Below are positions 2,659 to 6,412 of a DNA stretch of 11,089 bases, in pieces. The stretch lies in NCBI GenBank assembly GCA_038065455.1, contig JBBTQX010000007.1, positions 40,210-51,298 on the forward strand, written 5' to 3'. This DNA comes from Patescibacteria group bacterium (GTDB lineage: Bacteria; Patescibacteriota; Minisyncoccia; UBA6257; GWB1-50-10). The position numbers and the translations under genes are program-made. Positions within the stretch are counted from its first letter, which is position 1; every line of letters starts with the position of its first letter. Below the pieces are notes generated by a model, which did no database searches, was not told the origin of the DNA, and was given only the letters and a program-made list of their open reading frames with translations.

Positions 2659-3369
2659 TTATTTTAACTTATCCTCCTTGGGAAGCAACAGGTCCAATTC
2701 CCCGTCCAAGACCTGCTCTACGCGGGAAATTTTTTCTCCGGTAATGTGGTTCTTCACCTGTTTGTACGGGTGCAGGACGTACGAACGGATTTCGTGGCCC
2801 CATTCGGGCATGACGCGCGTCCGCAAATTCGATATTTCTTTCTCATGCTTCTCTTCAGCGAGCTTCAAGAGCTTCGCTTTGAGGAGATTGAGCGCTTTTT
2901 CTCGATTCGCGGATTGCGAACGCTCCGCCCGGGCCGAGGAAACCAGCCCCGTCGGCAAGTGTGTGATGCGCACGGCCGTCTCCACTTTGTTCACATTCTG
3001 GCCGCCGGGGCCGCCGGCGCGCGAAAAATCTACTTTTAAATCCCTGTCGGGAATATTCACATGCGCCGCCTCCATCGGCGGCAATTCCGGAAAAACTTCG
3101 ACGAGCGCGAAAGAGGTGTGGCGTAATTTTTTGGCATCGTATGGCGAGATGCGCACCAGGCGATGCACGCCATATTCGCCTTTCAATCTTTCGTAAGCCC
3201 CCTGCCCCTTCATCTCAATCGTGTTGTCGTCTATCATCTGCTTCTTCCAATTTTTGATGTCGGCAAAACGGCCGTACATTCGCATAAGCATTCCCGCCCA
3301 ATCTTTCGCGTCGTCCCCGCCCGCTCCCGCAAAAATAGTTATCGTCGCCACATTGGGATTGGAATTCAT
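2659..3369 (-). CDS. prfB: Peptide chain release factor 2, N-terminally shortened (lacks domain 1), 236 aa
   Basis: [27 protein letters not shown] (SPF-type tripeptide, here SPY), [22 protein letters not shown] and IRSYVLHPY; prfB-ftsEX synteny. ATG at 3369 chosen because it overlaps the upstream TAA (TAATG); the ORF track uses an upstream TTG at 3402. Confidence 0.88.
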
Positions 3370-4364
3370 TAGGAGATTTTTGAACTTAAGTCGCTTATCC
3401 AAGTTTTTATCTTTTCGGAAAAAGAGGGCTTATTTTTAATGTTTTCCCTTAAATCTAATCTTTCAATCAAATTAAACATTTGTCCGTCGGATGAAACTTT
3501 CGAAAGGTCGTAAAAAAAATTAGGTGGAAACATTTCCGAAAAAGAATTTTTGAATTCGGTATCGTTAAAATTGATTCCTTCTATCTTACCCCTGATAATT
3601 GCGTGCCAAACAGTCTCTTCATCCAAACCAACTGCTAAGCCGATTTTCTTTATAAAACCTTCCAAAAATAAAACTGAACCGTCGTAAGGCATTTTGCCTT
3701 TTTTGCTGTATAAAACATCTTCAAATTCTTTCACGTTCTCTGTTTTGGAAAAATCGGGATTCTTATCTAAATATTCGCTTGTTATTTCCCTAGCAATCTT
3801 TTCCGTCACTCCCTCGTCAAAAAAACGAAATAGGGAATTGAATTGGCTAGATTCATTCTCTTTTTGAATTGTTCCAATAGAGAATCCTGACTGTGTTTCA
3901 ATCACGCCATTCTTATTCCTTATAAACTCTTTTAAGCCGACACAAGATGTATAGGAAATTGCATGAGTTTCTTCGTGACATAACACCTGTAAAACCATAA
4001 GATCTTTGTTTAATCCCATATCTGATGAATAACGCTTAATCTCTTCATGGGAAGCATAAATTATATTTTCCATTATGCTGAATTCAGCCATTCTTTCACC
4101 TTCTTTAGAAGACAGGGAATTGGAAATTCTTTCGGGATTTAAGAAATTTATTTTTTCCGAATCTACGCCAGATTTTTCGGCGATATTCGAAAAGATTTCT
4201 CTCAAGGAATTGAAATCGATTTTGGCCAATAACTCTTCGAACTCCGGTGAATTTTCCGATTGCTTCATTATTCTTTTTCTTGATCCCTCTTCAAATCCAG
4301 CTACCCAGTTCTCATTCTCGGATTCACCAGATAAATTAAAGTGTTCCCGATTGATTTTATTCAT
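3369..4364 (-). CDS. Hypothetical protein with zincin/gluzincin-like HExxH...EGxTE motif (putative metallopeptidase)
   Basis: 331-aa AT-rich ORF; [10 protein letters not shown] followed downstream by [11 protein letters not shown]; GGAGGTG lies 7 nt upstream of the ATG. The function is inferred from the motif only. Confidence 0.7.
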
Positions 4365-4368
4365 CTTG

Positions 4369-4441
4369 AGCCACCTCCGAGATTCGAACTCGGGACCCCA
4401 TTTTTACGAAAAATGTGCTCTACCAGCTGAGCTAAGGTGGC
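4369..4441 (-). tRNA. tRNA-Thr (anticodon CGT), CCA not encoded
   Basis: The reverse complement folds as a full cloverleaf: GCCACCT/AGGTGGC acceptor stem, GCTC-AGCTGGTA-GAGC D arm, CATTT-TTCGTAA-AAATG anticodon arm, CCGAG-TTCGAAT-CTCGG T arm, discriminator T, then CAA rather than CCA. Confidence 0.96.
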
Positions 4442-4888
4442 TTATTTATTCTTCAATAAACGTCCTTCTTTCGCCCTATTACTTAAAACTCTATTCTTTC
4501 TGCCATTCCCTCTATTTAATCCTGCGTATGTCGGGGTTAATGAATCGCAATTCGGACATATCAAACGGAGATTGCTTTCAATATTATTTCGCCAGTCTCC
4601 ATTAATATGATCGGCCACCAATGGAGAGTCTCCGGTTTTTGGATTAATTTTCGACCAACCGCATAAACAGCACTTATTCCCAAATTTCTCCCGTAGATAC
4701 CGTTTAATGTGAACTGATACTATACCCAATCCTTGTAATCCATTAATCTTACTGGCTTTCCAATCAAGAATATACCACATGTGTTGATATTCTAGCTGAC
4801 ACTTATTACTGCAATACTTATATTTTGCACGAGCGGTTTCTTTTCCACAGAGTAAACAATTACTCCTAGGCTTTTTCGGCATTGGCAT
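4442..4888 (-). CDS. Free-standing HNH endonuclease with N-terminal Cys zinc finger
   Basis: CLLC...YCSNKC N-terminal Zn motif; CCLC...LVADHINGDWRNNIESNLRLICPNCD HNH/zinc-finger core (the last His position is Asp). Confidence 0.88.
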   Translation of the reverse strand: MPMPKKPRSNCLLCGKETARAKYKYCSNKCQLEYQHMWYILDWKASKINGLQGLGIVSVHIKRYLREKFGNKCCLCGWSKINPKTGDSPLVADHINGDWRNNIESNLRLICPNCDSLTPTYAGLNRGNGRKNRVLSNRAKEGRLLKNK

Positions 4889-4894
4889 AACTTC

Positions 4895-4922
4895 ATTATA
4901 CTGAAATTACAACCAAAGTAAA
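4895..4922 (-). promoter_or_regulatory. Putative sigma70 promoter for a leaderless HNH-tRNA-operon transcript
   Basis: Minus-strand TATAAT (4900-4895) lies 6 nt before the HNH ATG; TTTACT (4922-4917) is a -35 candidate with a 16-nt spacer. Confidence 0.6.
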
Positions 4923-4997
4923 TAAGTAAATTGGGTCGTATATTGAAAATTACTAGCTTAATAGATCATCAATTAAGCTTTCCCATTCTAACCATAA

Positions 4998-5027
4998 TTG
5001 ACAAAAAGTTCAAACAGAACATATAAT
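4998..5027 (+). promoter_or_regulatory. Consensus sigma70 promoter of rnpB
   Basis: TTGACA (4998-5003), 18-nt spacer, TATAAT (5022-5027), 6 nt before the P1 helix of the RNase P RNA. Confidence 0.85.
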
Positions 5028-5033
5028 TCCTTC

Positions 5034-5419
5034 AGTGAATCAAGAGACAGCTCTTTTAATTAGATTAGAAGAGAGGAAAGTCCGGACACTCCTCCCGAGC
5101 GCAAGCGAGGGAAAGAATAGCGGGTAACGCCCGCCGTGCGCGAGCATAGAGGTGCGAGCAGAAACGTCCCGAGGCGAAAGCCGAAGGAAGACCCCATCCC
5201 AACGTTGAAGGTCTAGTTCCGCCATAGGGATAAAAAGCGGAAATGAAACGGCTAAATCCTTATTTGAGTGCAAGGTCGTGTCAGCTCGATATATCGATAT
5301 TTCGAAATTTCGGGTTGGAGTGCCGCATAGTCCTGAGAGAAATCGAAGGGCTTGAGCCTGAGAGCAATCGAAGGCCCAGATGAATTGTCTCATAAACAGA
5401 ATCCGGCTTACGATTCACT
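5034..5419 (+). ncRNA. rnpB: RNase P RNA
   Basis: Universal motifs GAGGAAAGTCCGG and ACAGAATCCGGCTTA (P4 pseudoknot), terminal P1 AGTGAATC/GATTCACT, P2-like GAGACAG/TTGTCTC, P8 GCGGGTAACGCCCGC, TGAAACGG, GCAAG and AGATGAAT elements. Confidence 0.96.
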
Positions 5420-5421
5420 CG

Positions 5422-5446
5422 AAAACCCGCCATATGGCGGGTTTTT
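5422..5446. terminator. Intrinsic terminator, potentially bidirectional
   Basis: AAAACCCGCC-ATAT-GGCGGGTTTTT right after rnpB; it also faces the stop of the convergent pseudogene at 5448. Confidence 0.88.
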
Positions 5447-5447
5447 G

Positions 5448-5640
5448 TTAATCAGATAGGAATTTTTCTATAACTTTTATATCTTTCAAATCTTTTTCCC
5501 TGCCAAATTTTTTCTTCCACTCAAGAACGCTTTCAATCCTATAAATTTCTTATTCCCATCGGCGCACTACCAAACAAGGCATACTTGCCTATCGGTAATT
5601 TAAGATCTTTAATTTTCTGAAATAAATCCTTATTGCTCAT
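5448..5640 (-). pseudogene. Remnant of a small nucleotidyltransferase-like gene with an internal deletion/frameshift
   Basis: Manual translation: 5640-5539 gives MSNKDLFQKIKDLKLPIGKYALFGSAPMGIRNL*, and the +1 frame continues RIESVLEWKKKFGREKDLKDIKVIEKFLSD* to 5448. The hGS motif and C-terminal 'K...GREKD..D' resemble minimal NTase-fold proteins; the DxD core is missing. TATACT lies 7 nt before the ATG. Confidence 0.65.
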
Positions 5641-5682
5641 AATTTTAAGTATAGCTTAAATGATTAATTACTCTTAATTTCC

Positions 5683-5708
5683 AGGTGGTGTCTTTAAAGA
5701 CACCACCT
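5683..5708. repeat. Perfect 26-bp palindrome
   Basis: AGGTGGTGTCTTT|AAAGACACCACCT is its own reverse complement. Confidence 0.9.
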
Positions 5709-5791
5709 ATTTGTTTTTCTCAATTTTTTTAATTACACCGTACCAAATTAATATAAGTCCCGGAGCGCACACTTTTTACGCGTGCCGAGAC

Positions 5792-6412
5792 TTATATAAA
5801 TCTCCCGCAGAAAGTTTTTCGATGCATATCGGAAAGGCCGTGATGTTTTAATTTTTTCATATGGTGCGCGGTGCCGTAGCCCTTATGCTTCGGAAATCCG
5901 TAATGCGGATATTTTTCGTGCCGCCGAACCATCAGCGCGTCGCGGCTGACCTTGGCGACAATAGAGGCAAGTTTTACCGCGTCTATACTCTCGTCCCCTC
6001 TTATCACGGTGCGGACTTTCAATTTCTTTCTCCAATCGTTTTTGAGATATAAGCCGCCGTCCAAAAAAACGAACGGTTCGGTTTTTAGAATCGCTTGATC
6101 GGCCAATTTTTCGAAAGCCTTGGTCGCCGCGAGATTCGCCGCTTGGGAAATATTCATCCGGTCAATCGCTTTGGGCGAAACGCTCGCGGTTTTGAAAAAA
6201 ATATCGCTTCTTTTCTTCAGGTATGCGACCCAGCGCTTCCGCCCGGCCGGCGTCAATTTCTTGGAATCGCGCAAATTCAACTTCAAGCGCTTCAATTCCG
6301 CCGGGTCGAAACGCAATCCCGCCTCCAGGGCCAGTGCCCCAACGGTCACGGGCCCCGCCAGAGCGCCTCTCCCCACTTCGTCGATTCCTATAATGTATCG
6401 TTTCCGGATCAT
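5792..6412 (-). CDS. rnhB: Ribonuclease HII
   Basis: IGIDEVGRGALAGP, DSKKL, FLDG, ASIVAKVSRD and HKGYGT motifs. ATG at 6412 preferred over the TTG at 6442. Confidence 0.95.
   Translation of the reverse strand: MIRKRYIIGIDEVGRGALAGPVTVGALALEAGLRFDPAELKRLKLNLRDSKKLTPAGRKRWVAYLKKRSDIFFKTASVSPKAIDRMNISQAANLAATKAFEKLADQAILKTEPFVFLDGGLYLKNDWRKKLKVRTVIRGDESIDAVKLASIVAKVSRDALMVRRHEKYPHYGFPKHKGYGTAHHMKKLKHHGLSDMHRKTFCGRFI

What the first reader, a model, noticed from the sequence alone, without database searches (positions are those of the whole stretch)
4369..4900. HNH endonuclease ORF occupying the entire 5' leader of a pre-tRNA
Seen: TATAAT sits 6 nt before the HNH ATG (leaderless geometry), and the HNH TAA ends at 4442, immediately next to tRNA position 1 (4441) with no spacer. 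Known: RNase P cuts exactly at position 1, so the released leader would be an HNH mRNA running from about its start codon to precisely its stop codon; free-standing homing endonucleases occur in phage tRNA clusters. Inference: an intron-less selfish element that inserts between a tRNA promoter and its tRNA and uses RNase P processing, instead of splicing, to stay harmless. It may home into the promoter-tRNA junction and carry the flanking cargo. This is the best candidate for an undescribed system here; rnpB is divergently adjacent.
Basis: partly seen in the sequence, partly recalled or inferred. Interest (0 to 1): 0.75.

Follow-up and report, generated by a model that had tools for sequence, protein, structure and literature searches.

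The report
Mobile HNH nuclease gene fronting tRNA-Thr
A small nuclease gene of the homing-endonuclease type, patchily spread among ultra-small Patescibacteria, sits with its own promoter directly in front of one threonine tRNA gene, so the tRNA can apparently only be transcribed through it.

Summary
A 148-aa zinc-ribbon/HNH ORF (4442-4888, minus strand) ends with TAA exactly against base 1 of tRNA-Thr(CGT) (4441). A TATAAT lies 6 nt before its ATG. This is not chance: 80 of 81 homologous loci have tRNA-Thr(CGT) just downstream on the same strand, and in 48 of 80 the ORF runs into the tRNA and uses a tRNA-encoded stop (33 use tRNA bases 8-10).

The gene behaves as mobile. I found any match in 33 of 401 sampled phylum genomes and none in 4 same-genus genomes. 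Its sequence identity does not track that of the neighbouring FtsE, and decayed copies exist. Sister clades sit in front of tRNA-Thr(TGT) and tRNA-Leu(TAA/CAG). Phage relatives, including a T5-like phage, lie in tRNA clusters in a similar arrangement.

So the selfish-element reading is largely supported. Three details are not:
- The element brings its own promoter rather than slipping behind the tRNA's.
- The rnpB adjacency is local synteny.
- Tight ORF-tRNA packing and leaderless starts are common in this genome.

Nuclease activity, homing and RNase P release are inferred, not shown. I rate it a new variant of a known kind, the free-standing HNH homing endonucleases of phage tRNA clusters.

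The parts
4895..4922 (-). Element's own sigma-70-type promoter: -35 TTTACT (4922-4917), GGTTG box in the spacer (4914-4910), -10 TATAAT (4900-4895). The predicted transcription start is at or next to the A of the ATG, giving a leaderless mRNA.
   Evidence: 10 of 12 matches. A promoter with the same geometry recurs in homologous loci: the -10 ends exactly 6 nt before the start codon in 51 of 81, and 5-9 nt before it in 62 of 81, against 5.1 expected in shuffles. GGT[CT] occurs at -30..-21 in 56 of 81.
4442..4888 (-). 148-aa ORF with an N-terminal YacG-like zinc ribbon (C11, C14, C26, C30) and an HNH nuclease domain (C73, C76, D93-H94, N102, N106, C111, C114; Asp115 where sister clades have His). 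Stop TAA at 4444-4442.
   Evidence: AlphaFold2 model mean pLDDT 84.1. Foldseek finds only weak HNH-nuclease matches, best E 0.022. The PDB sequence search gives I-HmuI at E 0.049. Single copy in the genome.
4368..4441 (-). tRNA-Thr(CGT). Its base 1 follows the ORF's stop codon directly. It is the only tRNA-Thr found in the 10-contig assembly, and it is of the type native to the genus.
   Evidence: It aligns at 87-94% identity to the tRNA of same-genus empty alleles L085 and L087, and homology to those alleles resumes at 4443/4441.
3369..4364 (-). 331-aa ORF of unknown family that starts 3 nt after the tRNA 3' end. It is a strain-specific gene in the variable slot between the tRNA and prfB, in the same transcription direction, and is not a constant partner of the HNH gene.
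   Evidence: No Pfam, NCBIfam or PHROG match. No tblastn match in 80 HNH loci or in 29 relatives' loci. Contigs in other runs carry it 100% identical next to a different HNH/tRNA allele.
5032..5425 (+). RNase P RNA gene (rnpB), divergent neighbour. It is context only, not part of the element.
   Evidence: rnpB also lies next to the HNH-less alleles L083, L085, L086 and L087. It was found in 0 of 20 other HNH loci.

Best explanation
This is a compact mobile cassette of about 0.5 kb. It consists of its own promoter plus a free-standing zinc-ribbon/HNH endonuclease gene, from a family specialised on tRNA genes. The clade in the window is tied to tRNA-Thr(CGU).

Shown: the cassette lies directly 5' of the tRNA in nearly all homologous loci. 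It is patchily distributed, and its sequence history is uncoupled from that of the neighbouring host gene ftsE. Close relatives of the window's genome have the same tRNA-prfB-ftsEX locus without it.

Inferred mechanism:
- Transcription starts at the A of the ATG, giving a leaderless mRNA.
- It runs through the ORF into the tRNA, and probably on into orf331-prfB-ftsEX.
- RNase P cuts at tRNA base 1, freeing a functional tRNA and leaving an HNH mRNA that ends at its stop codon.
- In the 48 of 80 relatives whose stop codon lies inside the tRNA, the cut would leave a non-stop mRNA. Processing would then limit nuclease synthesis.
- The nuclease is proposed to cut or nick HNH-less alleles at or near the tRNA-Thr(CGT) gene. 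Recombinational repair from an occupied allele, with DNA entering by uptake or phage, would then copy the cassette, often together with the tRNA.
For: Association: 80 of 81 loci have tRNA-Thr(CGT) on the same strand right after the ORF. Offsets among those 80: 48 overlap, 11 lie at 0-10 nt, 20 at 11-60 nt and 1 at 151 nt.

Patchiness: 33 of 401 sampled phylum genomes have any match. Only 5 of the 400 other than G000 have a full-length match at 62% identity or more, and 2 of those 5 have in-frame stops. Among 40 relatives, 3 have the Thr(CGT) type and 0 of 4 same-genus genomes (85-99% complete) have it. In 29 relatives' prfB loci the tRNA is present in 22 and HNH in 2.

Uncoupled history: HNH and adjacent FtsE pairwise identities are uncorrelated. 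Mantel r is 0.08, with 192 of 2000 permutations reaching it over 51 loci, and r is 0.03, with 648 of 2000, over 48 loci after duplicates were removed. Window versus L058 gives FtsE 0.92 but HNH 0.68; L032 versus L044 gives HNH 0.92 but FtsE 0.69.

Co-movement with the tRNA: 18 of 86 HNH-linked tRNAs share one 15-nt anticodon-arm word against 1 of 21 unlinked ones. The 7 of these 18 that also have an FtsE sequence give 21 host pairs with median FtsE identity 0.64 and median HNH identity 0.79. A metagenome contig has orf331 100% identical, then an unalignable tRNA, then HNH at about 83% identity, with 26 of the 28 differences listed at 4496-4586 falling on third codon positions. tRNA 5' fragments lie after the HNH stop in L027 and L065.

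Family logic: the clade at about 50% identity sits at tRNA-Thr(TGT/GGT). The distant clade sits at tRNA-Leu(TAA or CAG) in 20 of 23 loci. Phage relatives lie in tRNA clusters: 10 of 11 sampled records and 4 of 4 viral contigs have a tRNA close by.

Own promoter: conserved across hosts and unlike the promoters of empty alleles.

No tRNA promoter in the window: no promoter-like site on the tRNA's strand inside the ORF, even at 8 of 12 matches. Across 80 loci such sites are depleted, 27 against 49.2 +/- 7.6 in shuffles.

Precedent: in the E. coli secG-leuU transcript, RNase P separates an upstream mRNA from a tRNA (PMC2241853; abstract and section 15 read).
Against: - No experiment or RNA data bear on it. 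No RNA run holds the locus, so the transcription start, co-transcription and the RNase P cut are all inferred.
- Nuclease activity is inferred from motifs. In this clade the residue after the second CxxC is Asp, not the His of sister clades and phage relatives. Pfam HNH_3 is below its cut-off, and no Foldseek match reaches E 0.001.
- No cleavage site is known. Occupied and empty alleles in the genus carry nearly the same tRNA, so the tRNA body does not explain immunity of occupied alleles.
- I found no nucleotide-clean empty site. Against the nearest congener L083, the whole stretch 3370-5033 is replaced.
- Abutting ORF-tRNA pairs (8 of 33 tRNAs) and -10 hexamers 6-7 nt before start codons are common in this genome, so the geometry needs no special adaptive story.
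- In the 21 loci with gaps of 14 nt or more, a -10-like element before the tRNA, visible in many of them, suggests independent tRNA transcription there.
- In one locus (L111) HNH lies downstream of the tRNA.
- Genome samples are MAGs, and absence from a MAG is not proof of absence.
Confidence: 0.65

Rival explanations
1. A passive passenger. The HNH gene arrived with phage or tRNA-island DNA and is no longer, or never was, an active homing enzyme in these bacteria. It persists because its promoter now drives an essential tRNA and possibly the downstream operon, so precise loss is rare.
For: Phage relatives with the same architecture sit in tRNA clusters. His is replaced by Asp at the last HNH position in this clade. 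The element's promoter is the only promoter-like site before the tRNA in the window. 2 of the 5 close copies in the phylum sample carry stops.
Against: The protein is under strong purifying selection: 26 of 28 listed differences between two alleles fall on third codon positions, and loci share 57-100% amino-acid identity. The same precise position recurs in hosts with FtsE near 60% identity. High HNH identity between divergent hosts (0.92 against 0.69) needs repeated, targeted transfer. No close homologue (above 51% identity) turned up in viral contigs.
Confidence: 0.17
2. A host-beneficial, domesticated nuclease or DNA-binding protein, for example a regulator of the tRNA-prfB-ftsEX operon or a DNA-uptake, repair or defence factor. 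It would be exchanged between lineages because it is useful, with the conserved GGTCG box as its operator.
For: Strong sequence conservation. The conserved promoter-spacer box occurs in 56 of 81 loci. The gene keeps a fixed place at the head of a core operon, with prfB downstream in 55 of 80 loci.
Against: It was not found in most genomes searched, including all 4 congeners, so it is dispensable. Sister clades sit before unrelated tRNAs with other downstream genes. There is no sequence likeness between promoter and tRNA that would suggest a shared binding site: 0.21 against 0.14 in shuffles for shared words of at least 7 nt.
Confidence: 0.1
3. A vertically inherited core gene of Patescibacteria that happens to abut the tRNA because of genome compaction.
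For: 66-94% identity among more than 2000 database proteins. Conserved HNH-tRNA-prfB-ftsE-ftsX order. Tight ORF-tRNA packing genome-wide.
Against: 33 of 401 genomes have any match, and 0 of 4 congeners do. There is no correlation with FtsE divergence. Empty alleles have intact synteny.
Confidence: 0.04

Closest known systems
Free-standing HNH homing endonuclease genes in phage tRNA gene clusters (T5-like Demerecviridae and others)
   Same: Homologous protein with the same zinc ribbon + HNH architecture, at 34-45% identity; 210 phage records match. In a T5-like Salmonella phage the 130-aa ORF ends on base 1 of tRNA-Thr(TGT). In Enterococcus phage iF6 it overlaps tRNA-Thr(TGT) by 15 nt. A published remark says HNH homing endonucleases occur in tRNA clusters of many lytic phages (PMC10194208, passages read).
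   Different: Here the gene is in a bacterial chromosome, between core genes (rnhB/rnpB and prfB-ftsEX). It forms host-wide clades, each tied to one isoacceptor, has a conserved leaderless promoter, and commonly uses a stop codon inside the tRNA. Phage copies lie on either side of the tRNA: 4 of 11 sampled run into a same-strand tRNA 5' end. The named T5 and T4 enzymes (F-Tfl, SegB, MobE) are recalled or seen only in search listings and abstracts; I did not compare them here.
I-HmuI (intron-encoded HNH homing/nicking endonuclease, PDB 1u3e)
   Same: Best PDB sequence match to the HNH core (residues 89-112, E 0.049). Same superfamily.
   Different: The match is marginal. There is no intron here, the DNA-binding domains differ, and activity and target are unknown.
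E. coli secG-leuU type mRNA-tRNA co-transcripts
   Same: A protein-coding mRNA lies upstream of a tRNA in one transcript, and RNase P separates them, after which the mRNA decays rapidly (PMC2241853; abstract and section 15 read).
   Different: secG is a host gene with its own spacer and stop codon. Here the upstream ORF is a mobile nuclease gene with no spacer (window) or with its stop codon inside the tRNA (48 of 80 relatives). Processing here is inferred only.
Mitochondrial tRNA punctuation of polycistronic transcripts
   Same: The tRNA is flanked without spacers by coding regions: the HNH stop abuts its 5' end, the next ORF starts 3 nt after its 3' end, and in relatives the prfB ATG follows the CCA directly.
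   Different: This is a bacterial genome, the comparison is by analogy from recalled textbook knowledge, and no processing data exist.

Membership tests
HNH (beta-beta-alpha-Me) endonuclease superfamily | Significant match to a curated HNH profile | tested here: inconclusive
   Pfam HNH_3 gives E 0.0094 and 16 bits, below the 24.8 cut-off. NCBIfam gives only weak IscB-HNH and YacG hits. PHROG phrog_1271 'HNH endonuclease' gives E 7.3e-16. PHROG names are annotations, not tested functions.
HNH (beta-beta-alpha-Me) endonuclease superfamily | Catalytic Asp-His, structural or metal-binding Asn residues, and the CxxC...CxxC zinc site around them | tested here: met
   D93, H94, N102, N106, N113 and C73, C76, C111, C114 are invariant in 27 aligned sequences. 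The assignment of roles to these residues is recalled knowledge of the motif.
HNH (beta-beta-alpha-Me) endonuclease superfamily | Last His (or Asn) of the motif after the second CxxC | tested here: not met
   The Thr(CGT) clade has Asp (CPNCD), while the Thr(TGT) and Leu clades and the T5-like phage protein have His. Asp could still bind metal, but that is untested.
HNH (beta-beta-alpha-Me) endonuclease superfamily | HNH fold | tested here: inconclusive
   The model has pLDDT 84.1. The top Foldseek PDB matches are HNH nucleases (Cap5, PacI, McrA, Cas9 HNH), but the best E is 0.022 and none reaches 0.001.
Free-standing homing endonuclease gene | Presence/absence polymorphism among close relatives with intact flanks | tested here: met
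   0 of 4 same-genus genomes and 3 of 40 relatives carry it. Empty alleles L083, L085 and L087 keep rnhB-rnpB-tRNA-prfB.
Free-standing homing endonuclease gene | Gene history uncoupled from host history | tested here: met
   Mantel tests of HNH against FtsE give r 0.08 and r 0.03, neither exceeding permutations. FtsE is a single host marker, and no species tree was built.
Free-standing homing endonuclease gene | Constant insertion position next to a conserved target gene | tested here: met
   80 of 81 loci lie next to tRNA-Thr(CGT). Sister clades lie at other specific tRNAs.
Free-standing homing endonuclease gene | Co-conversion of flanking markers | tested here: inconclusive
   A shared tRNA type occurs in divergent hosts. 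One contig shows an allele swap bounded at the tRNA 3' end. tRNA fragments lie after the stop in L027 and L065. All of this is indirect, and the contig could be a mis-join.
Free-standing homing endonuclease gene | Site-specific cleavage of the endonuclease-less allele and conversion of it | not testable with these tools
   Needs purified protein and a two-allele assay.
mRNA-tRNA co-transcript processed by RNase P | Same strand, with no promoter or terminator between ORF and tRNA | tested here: met
   Zero spacer in the window. No promoter-like site on that strand within the ORF. No terminator-like site on that strand between 4888 and 4368. Consensus scans only.
mRNA-tRNA co-transcript processed by RNase P | Observed precursor and RNase P-dependent ends | not testable with these tools
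   No RNA run holds the locus. rnpB is present in the genome.

The most novel reading that the evidence does not exclude
Patescibacterial chromosomes host a superfamily of isoacceptor-specific tRNA-gene homing endonucleases, for Thr-CGU, Thr-UGU, Leu-UAA and Leu-CAG. These have fused their expression to the tRNA they target. A leaderless promoter replaces the tRNA's own promoter, and the ORF has no stop codon of its own but borrows conserved tRNA bases: U8-A9-G10, the D-loop TAG, or T36-A37-A38. RNase P processing therefore turns the nuclease mRNA into a non-stop message. This would make nuclease output self-limiting, and it would make the host depend on the parasite's promoter for an essential tRNA. 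The cassette would spread between distant lineages by DNA uptake and drag a tRNA allele with it.
Probability: 0.3. Interest if true: 0.8.

Novelty: new variant of a known kind. Interest (0 to 1): 0.62.

Why it matters
Free-standing homing endonucleases are known mainly from phages and organelles. How they persist in cellular chromosomes without harming the host is poorly understood. Here a whole family appears to live in the chromosomes of genome-reduced bacteria by sitting in front of tRNA genes. That gives it a conserved target, a guaranteed transcript, and a cheap way for tRNA processing to remove it at the RNA level. If the nucleases recognise particular isoacceptor genes, they are natural, compact, sequence-specific enzymes with readable target rules, since four clades map to four tRNAs. 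The locus also offers a concrete test bed for leaderless translation and tRNA-punctuated operons in Patescibacteria, which are hard to study. It also warns annotators that tRNA-Thr(CGT) alleles in these genomes can be horizontally replaced.

Tried and rejected
- rnpB as part of the system: rejected. None of 20 other HNH loci has rnpB, and the HNH-less congeners keep rnpB beside the tRNA.
- orf331 as cargo: rejected. It has no match in 80 HNH loci or in 29 relatives' loci.
- 'The tRNA was swapped in the window': this was my first reading, from L083. I withdrew it, because L085 and L087 of the same genus carry nearly the window's tRNA.
- The promoter box GGTCG as a mimic of a site in the tRNA: no support. 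Shared words of at least 7 nt occur in 0.21 of loci against 0.14 of shuffles.
- An internal tRNA promoter in the ORF: none in the window, even at 8 of 12 matches. Such sites are depleted across loci, but a -10-like element appears in many of the loci with gaps of 14 nt or more.
- Expression data: no RNA holder is listed for window:4200-5100, so nothing can be said about transcripts. The laid runs were DNA contigs only.
- Fold search: no PDB match at E 0.001 or better.
- Close homologues in IMG/VR: only 4 loci, the best at 51% identity, so no phage vector was identified.
- Literature: searches (terms are given in those calls), plus passages read, turned up no description of HNH genes fronting tRNA genes in Patescibacteria/CPR. 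One search found nothing on truncated release factors in Patescibacteria. Subscription journals and supplements were not searched.
- Not used: complex prediction, the search of protein representatives and the protein-atlas search. I did not need them.
- (promoters of the sister clades) stopped with a script error after 15 of 26 loci. I cite only what it printed.
Full report
**What is in the window**

On the minus strand, ARAGORN and Rfam find one tRNA, tRNA-Thr(CGT), at 4368-4441. The ORF 4442..4888 (148 aa, ATG) ends with TAA at 4444-4442, directly against tRNA base 1. A promoter-like site precedes it: TTTACT at 4922-4917, a 16-nt spacer and TATAAT at 4900-4895. That leaves 6 nt before the ATG, so the expected start of transcription is the A of the ATG. 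The next ORF (3369..4364, 331 aa) starts 3 nt after the tRNA. After it come prfB, ftsE, ftsX and a dus gene. On the other side lie a divergent rnpB (5032-5425), then rnhB and dnaE. The window lies on contig 7 of a 654-kb, 10-contig genome. The titles of the related records place it in Patescibacteria. So this is a bacterial chromosome, not a phage.

**The protein**

It has an N-terminal four-cysteine ribbon with weak YacG likeness (the Foldseek YacG hit agrees). An HNH domain follows.
- Pfam HNH_3 is below its threshold (E 0.0094).
- PHROG phrog_1271 'HNH endonuclease' matches at E 7.3e-16.
- The best PDB sequence match is the homing endonuclease I-HmuI, at a marginal E 0.049.
- An AlphaFold2 model (pLDDT 84.1) finds only HNH nucleases in the PDB, and weakly (best E 0.022).
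- In 27 aligned sequences the two zinc sites, D93-H94 and N102/N106/N113 are invariant.
- One oddity: this clade has Asp where relatives have the last His of the motif.

**The association with the tRNA is real and general**

A scan of one genome per species returned 80 loci that encode a relative at 63-79% identity.
- 79 of the 80 have tRNA-Thr(CGT) on the same strand just after the ORF. The exception ends 49 nt after the ORF.
- With the window added (81 loci, 80 with a tRNA), 48 ORFs overlap the tRNA, 11 end 0-10 nt before it, 20 end 11-60 nt before it, and 1 ends 151 nt before it.
- In 33 loci the stop codon is tRNA bases 8-10 (25 TAG, 8 TAA). Others use a TAG in the D-arm at linear positions 19-21 or 24-26, and one uses T36-A37-A38. 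The tRNA thus offers a stop in every frame.
- The C-terminal tails read from tRNA sequence are not conserved as protein.
- The upstream promoter is conserved too. The -10 ends exactly 6 nt before the start codon in 51 of 81 loci, and 5-9 nt before it in 62 of 81, against 5.1 in shuffles. A GGT[CT] box sits in the spacer in 56 of 81.

**It is not a core gene**

- In an even sample of the phylum, 33 of 401 genomes (G000 included) have any match at E 1e-5.
- Five others have a full-length match at 62-77% identity. One of these has one in-frame TGA and one has five stops.
- Five more match at about 50% identity. The remainder match only the HNH domain.
- Among 40 relatives, 3 carry this type, and none of the 4 same-genus genomes (85-99% complete) does.
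- In 29 relatives' prfB loci, tRNA-Thr(CGT) is present in 22 and HNH in 2.
- Same-genus alleles L085 and L087 carry nearly the window's tRNA (87% and 94% identity over the aligned stretch). Their homology to the window resumes at 4443/4441, the tRNA 5' end.
- Upstream, those empty alleles have a different promoter and a leader of about 15 nt. Downstream, the prfB ATG follows the tRNA directly.
- Against the closest congener, L083 (FtsE 99%), the whole stretch 3370-5033 is replaced by other sequence, including a different tRNA-Thr(CGT) and a 187-aa ORF.

**Its history is uncoupled from the host's**

For 51 loci with both genes, pairwise HNH and FtsE identities are uncorrelated: Spearman -0.04, Mantel r 0.08, with 192 of 2000 permutations at least as high. 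After I dropped two genomes fetched twice and one locus without a linked tRNA (48 loci), r is 0.03, with 648 of 2000 permutations as high. Two examples:
- Window versus L058: FtsE 0.92, HNH 0.68.
- L032 versus L044: HNH 0.92, FtsE 0.69.

The tRNA correlates weakly with both HNH and FtsE (r 0.13 each).

A distinct tRNA type travels with part of the HNH clade. 18 of 86 linked tRNAs share one 15-nt anticodon-arm word, against 1 of 21 unlinked. The 86 include three genomes fetched twice. The 7 of these 18 that also have an FtsE sequence give 21 host pairs with median FtsE identity 0.64 and median HNH identity 0.79. Three loci have identical tRNAs.

Public DNA contigs add one more hint. One contig (run X7) is 100% identical to the window across orf331 up to 4372. 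It then has 88 unalignable letters in place of the tRNA. It then has HNH with 43 differences in 247 bases, and 26 of the 28 differences listed at 4496-4586 fall on third codon positions. Another contig (X10) joins 3369 to 5034, as in the L083-type allele. These are contigs, not reads, so mis-joins cannot be excluded.

**The wider family**

I fetched the 34 places matched in the phylum sample.
- The close group (5 of 5) is at tRNA-Thr(CGT).
- The group at about 50% identity (5 loci plus one fragment) is next to tRNA-Thr(TGT) or tRNA-Thr(GGT).
- The distant group has a different N-terminal domain (phrog_10822, E 4e-43). In 20 of 23 loci it ends at or inside a same-strand tRNA-Leu: TAA in 18 and CAG in 2.
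- The sister clades show the same -10, 6-nt, start-codon geometry in the loci printed before my script stopped.

In phages, 210 records match. I picked 11 from the top 30 for host diversity, so they are not a random sample.
- 10 lie within 71 nt of a tRNA, and 7 of these are next to a tRNA-Thr.
- 4 run into the 5' end of a same-strand tRNA. One is a T5-like Salmonella phage whose unannotated 130-aa ORF ends on base 1 of tRNA-Thr(TGT).
- All 4 IMG/VR relatives are beside tRNAs as well.

**How it most likely works**

Shown: position, promoter conservation, patchy distribution, uncoupled history, and linkage to tRNA alleles.

Inferred:
- Transcription starts at the ATG, giving a leaderless mRNA, and reads through into the tRNA. 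In the window no promoter-like site exists on that strand inside the ORF, even at 8 of 12 matches. Across loci such sites are depleted, 27 against 49.2 +/- 7.6.
- RNase P then frees the tRNA. The E. coli secG-leuU transcript is a documented case in which RNase P separates an upstream mRNA from a tRNA, after which the mRNA decays fast (PMC2241853).
- Where the stop codon lies inside the tRNA, the cut would leave a non-stop mRNA, which would limit nuclease synthesis.
- The nuclease is proposed to cut HNH-less alleles at or near the tRNA gene and to be copied in by repair.

**What tempers this**

- No RNA data exist for the locus.
- No activity data exist, and no cleavage site can be deduced.
- The tRNA body is nearly the same in occupied and empty alleles of the genus.
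- In the 21 loci with a gap of 14 nt or more, a -10-like element, often TGnTATATT overlapping the HNH stop, is visible before the tRNA in many of them. Those tRNAs may have their own promoter.
- One locus (L111) has HNH after the tRNA.
- ORF-tRNA abutment and leaderless-type geometry are common in this genome. 8 of 33 tRNAs have a same-strand frame of at least 80 codons ending within 4 nt of the tRNA 5' end. TATAAT-like hexamers peak 6-7 nt before candidate start codons, with counts of 57 and 63 against roughly 20-39 at most other spacings.

**Comparison and novelty**

The closest known things are the free-standing HNH homing endonuclease genes of phage tRNA clusters. A review-type remark on these appears in PMC10194208. 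The named T4/T5 enzymes are recalled or seen only in listings. New here, as far as my searches show:
- The chromosomal home in Patescibacteria.
- Clades tied to single isoacceptors.
- The conserved leaderless promoter.
- The routine use of tRNA-encoded stop codons.

I therefore file it as a new variant of a known kind. The details about the native promoter, rnpB and cargo are not.

Noticed in passing
window 2659-3369 (-); relatives L083-L111: Release factor 2 here is only 236 aa. It starts at the equivalent of residue ~103 of the NCBIfam prfB model, so it lacks the N-terminal domain and the usual programmed frameshift site. It keeps GGQ and an SPY (SPF-like) motif. Relatives have open frames of 235-256 aa, and the RF1-like second match is similarly short (245-275 aa). 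One literature search found nothing on this.
   Followed up: partly
window 4364-4368; L083-L110 tRNA 3' ends: The gene after tRNA-Thr(CGT) starts 0-3 nt after the tRNA 3' end. In many relatives the prfB ATG follows the encoded CCA directly. 3' processing of the tRNA would then yield a leaderless prfB mRNA, as in a tRNA-punctuated operon.
   Followed up: partly
whole genome G000: 8 of the 33 detected tRNAs have a same-strand open frame of at least 80 codons that ends within 4 nt of the tRNA 5' end (for example, frames of 622 and 472 codons before tRNA-Ile and tRNA-Arg). Only 33 tRNAs and a single tRNA-Thr were found, so some tRNA clusters are probably unassembled.
   Followed up: partly
whole genome G000: TATAAT-like hexamers peak 6-7 nt upstream of candidate start codons, and Shine-Dalgarno-like cores are rare (96 of 868 crude open frames). 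This suggests leaderless mRNAs are common in this organism.
   Followed up: partly
window 4910-4914 (-) and -30..-21 of 56 of 81 homologous loci: A conserved GGTCG/GGTTG box lies in the spacer between the -35 and -10 of the HNH promoter. It could be an operator; autoregulation by the nuclease is a guess. It bears no likeness to the tRNA.
   Followed up: partly
window 3369-4364 (-): A 331-aa ORF with no Pfam, NCBIfam or PHROG match. It is absent from the four same-genus loci, where a 187-aa ORF or nothing occupies the slot. The tRNA-prfB gap is a variable spot, from 0 to about 2 kb across relatives.
   Followed up: partly
window 5091-5116 versus L083 523-652: The rnpB of the nearest congener has about 105 extra bases at one point compared with the window's rnpB. 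The window's rnpB scores only 102.5 bits against a gathering score of 100.
   Followed up: no
window 5420-5791: Contigs at high depth in all four laid runs join 5419 to 5792 with 32 other letters between. Related populations therefore lack this 372-nt stretch between rnpB and rnhB. Its content was not examined.
   Followed up: no
L027 3457-3497; L065 3445-3595: The gap between the HNH stop and the intact tRNA-Thr(CGT) contains a partial copy of the tRNA 5' half. This looks like a scar of insertion or recombination.
   Followed up: no
L002, L003, L005, L006, L009, L012, L017 tRNAs: In the tRNA type shared among distant hosts, the D-stem pair 10:25 is A:T instead of G:C. This creates the TAG (linear positions 24-26) that several of these HNH ORFs use as their stop. 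It may be co-adaptation of ORF and tRNA, or chance.
   Followed up: no
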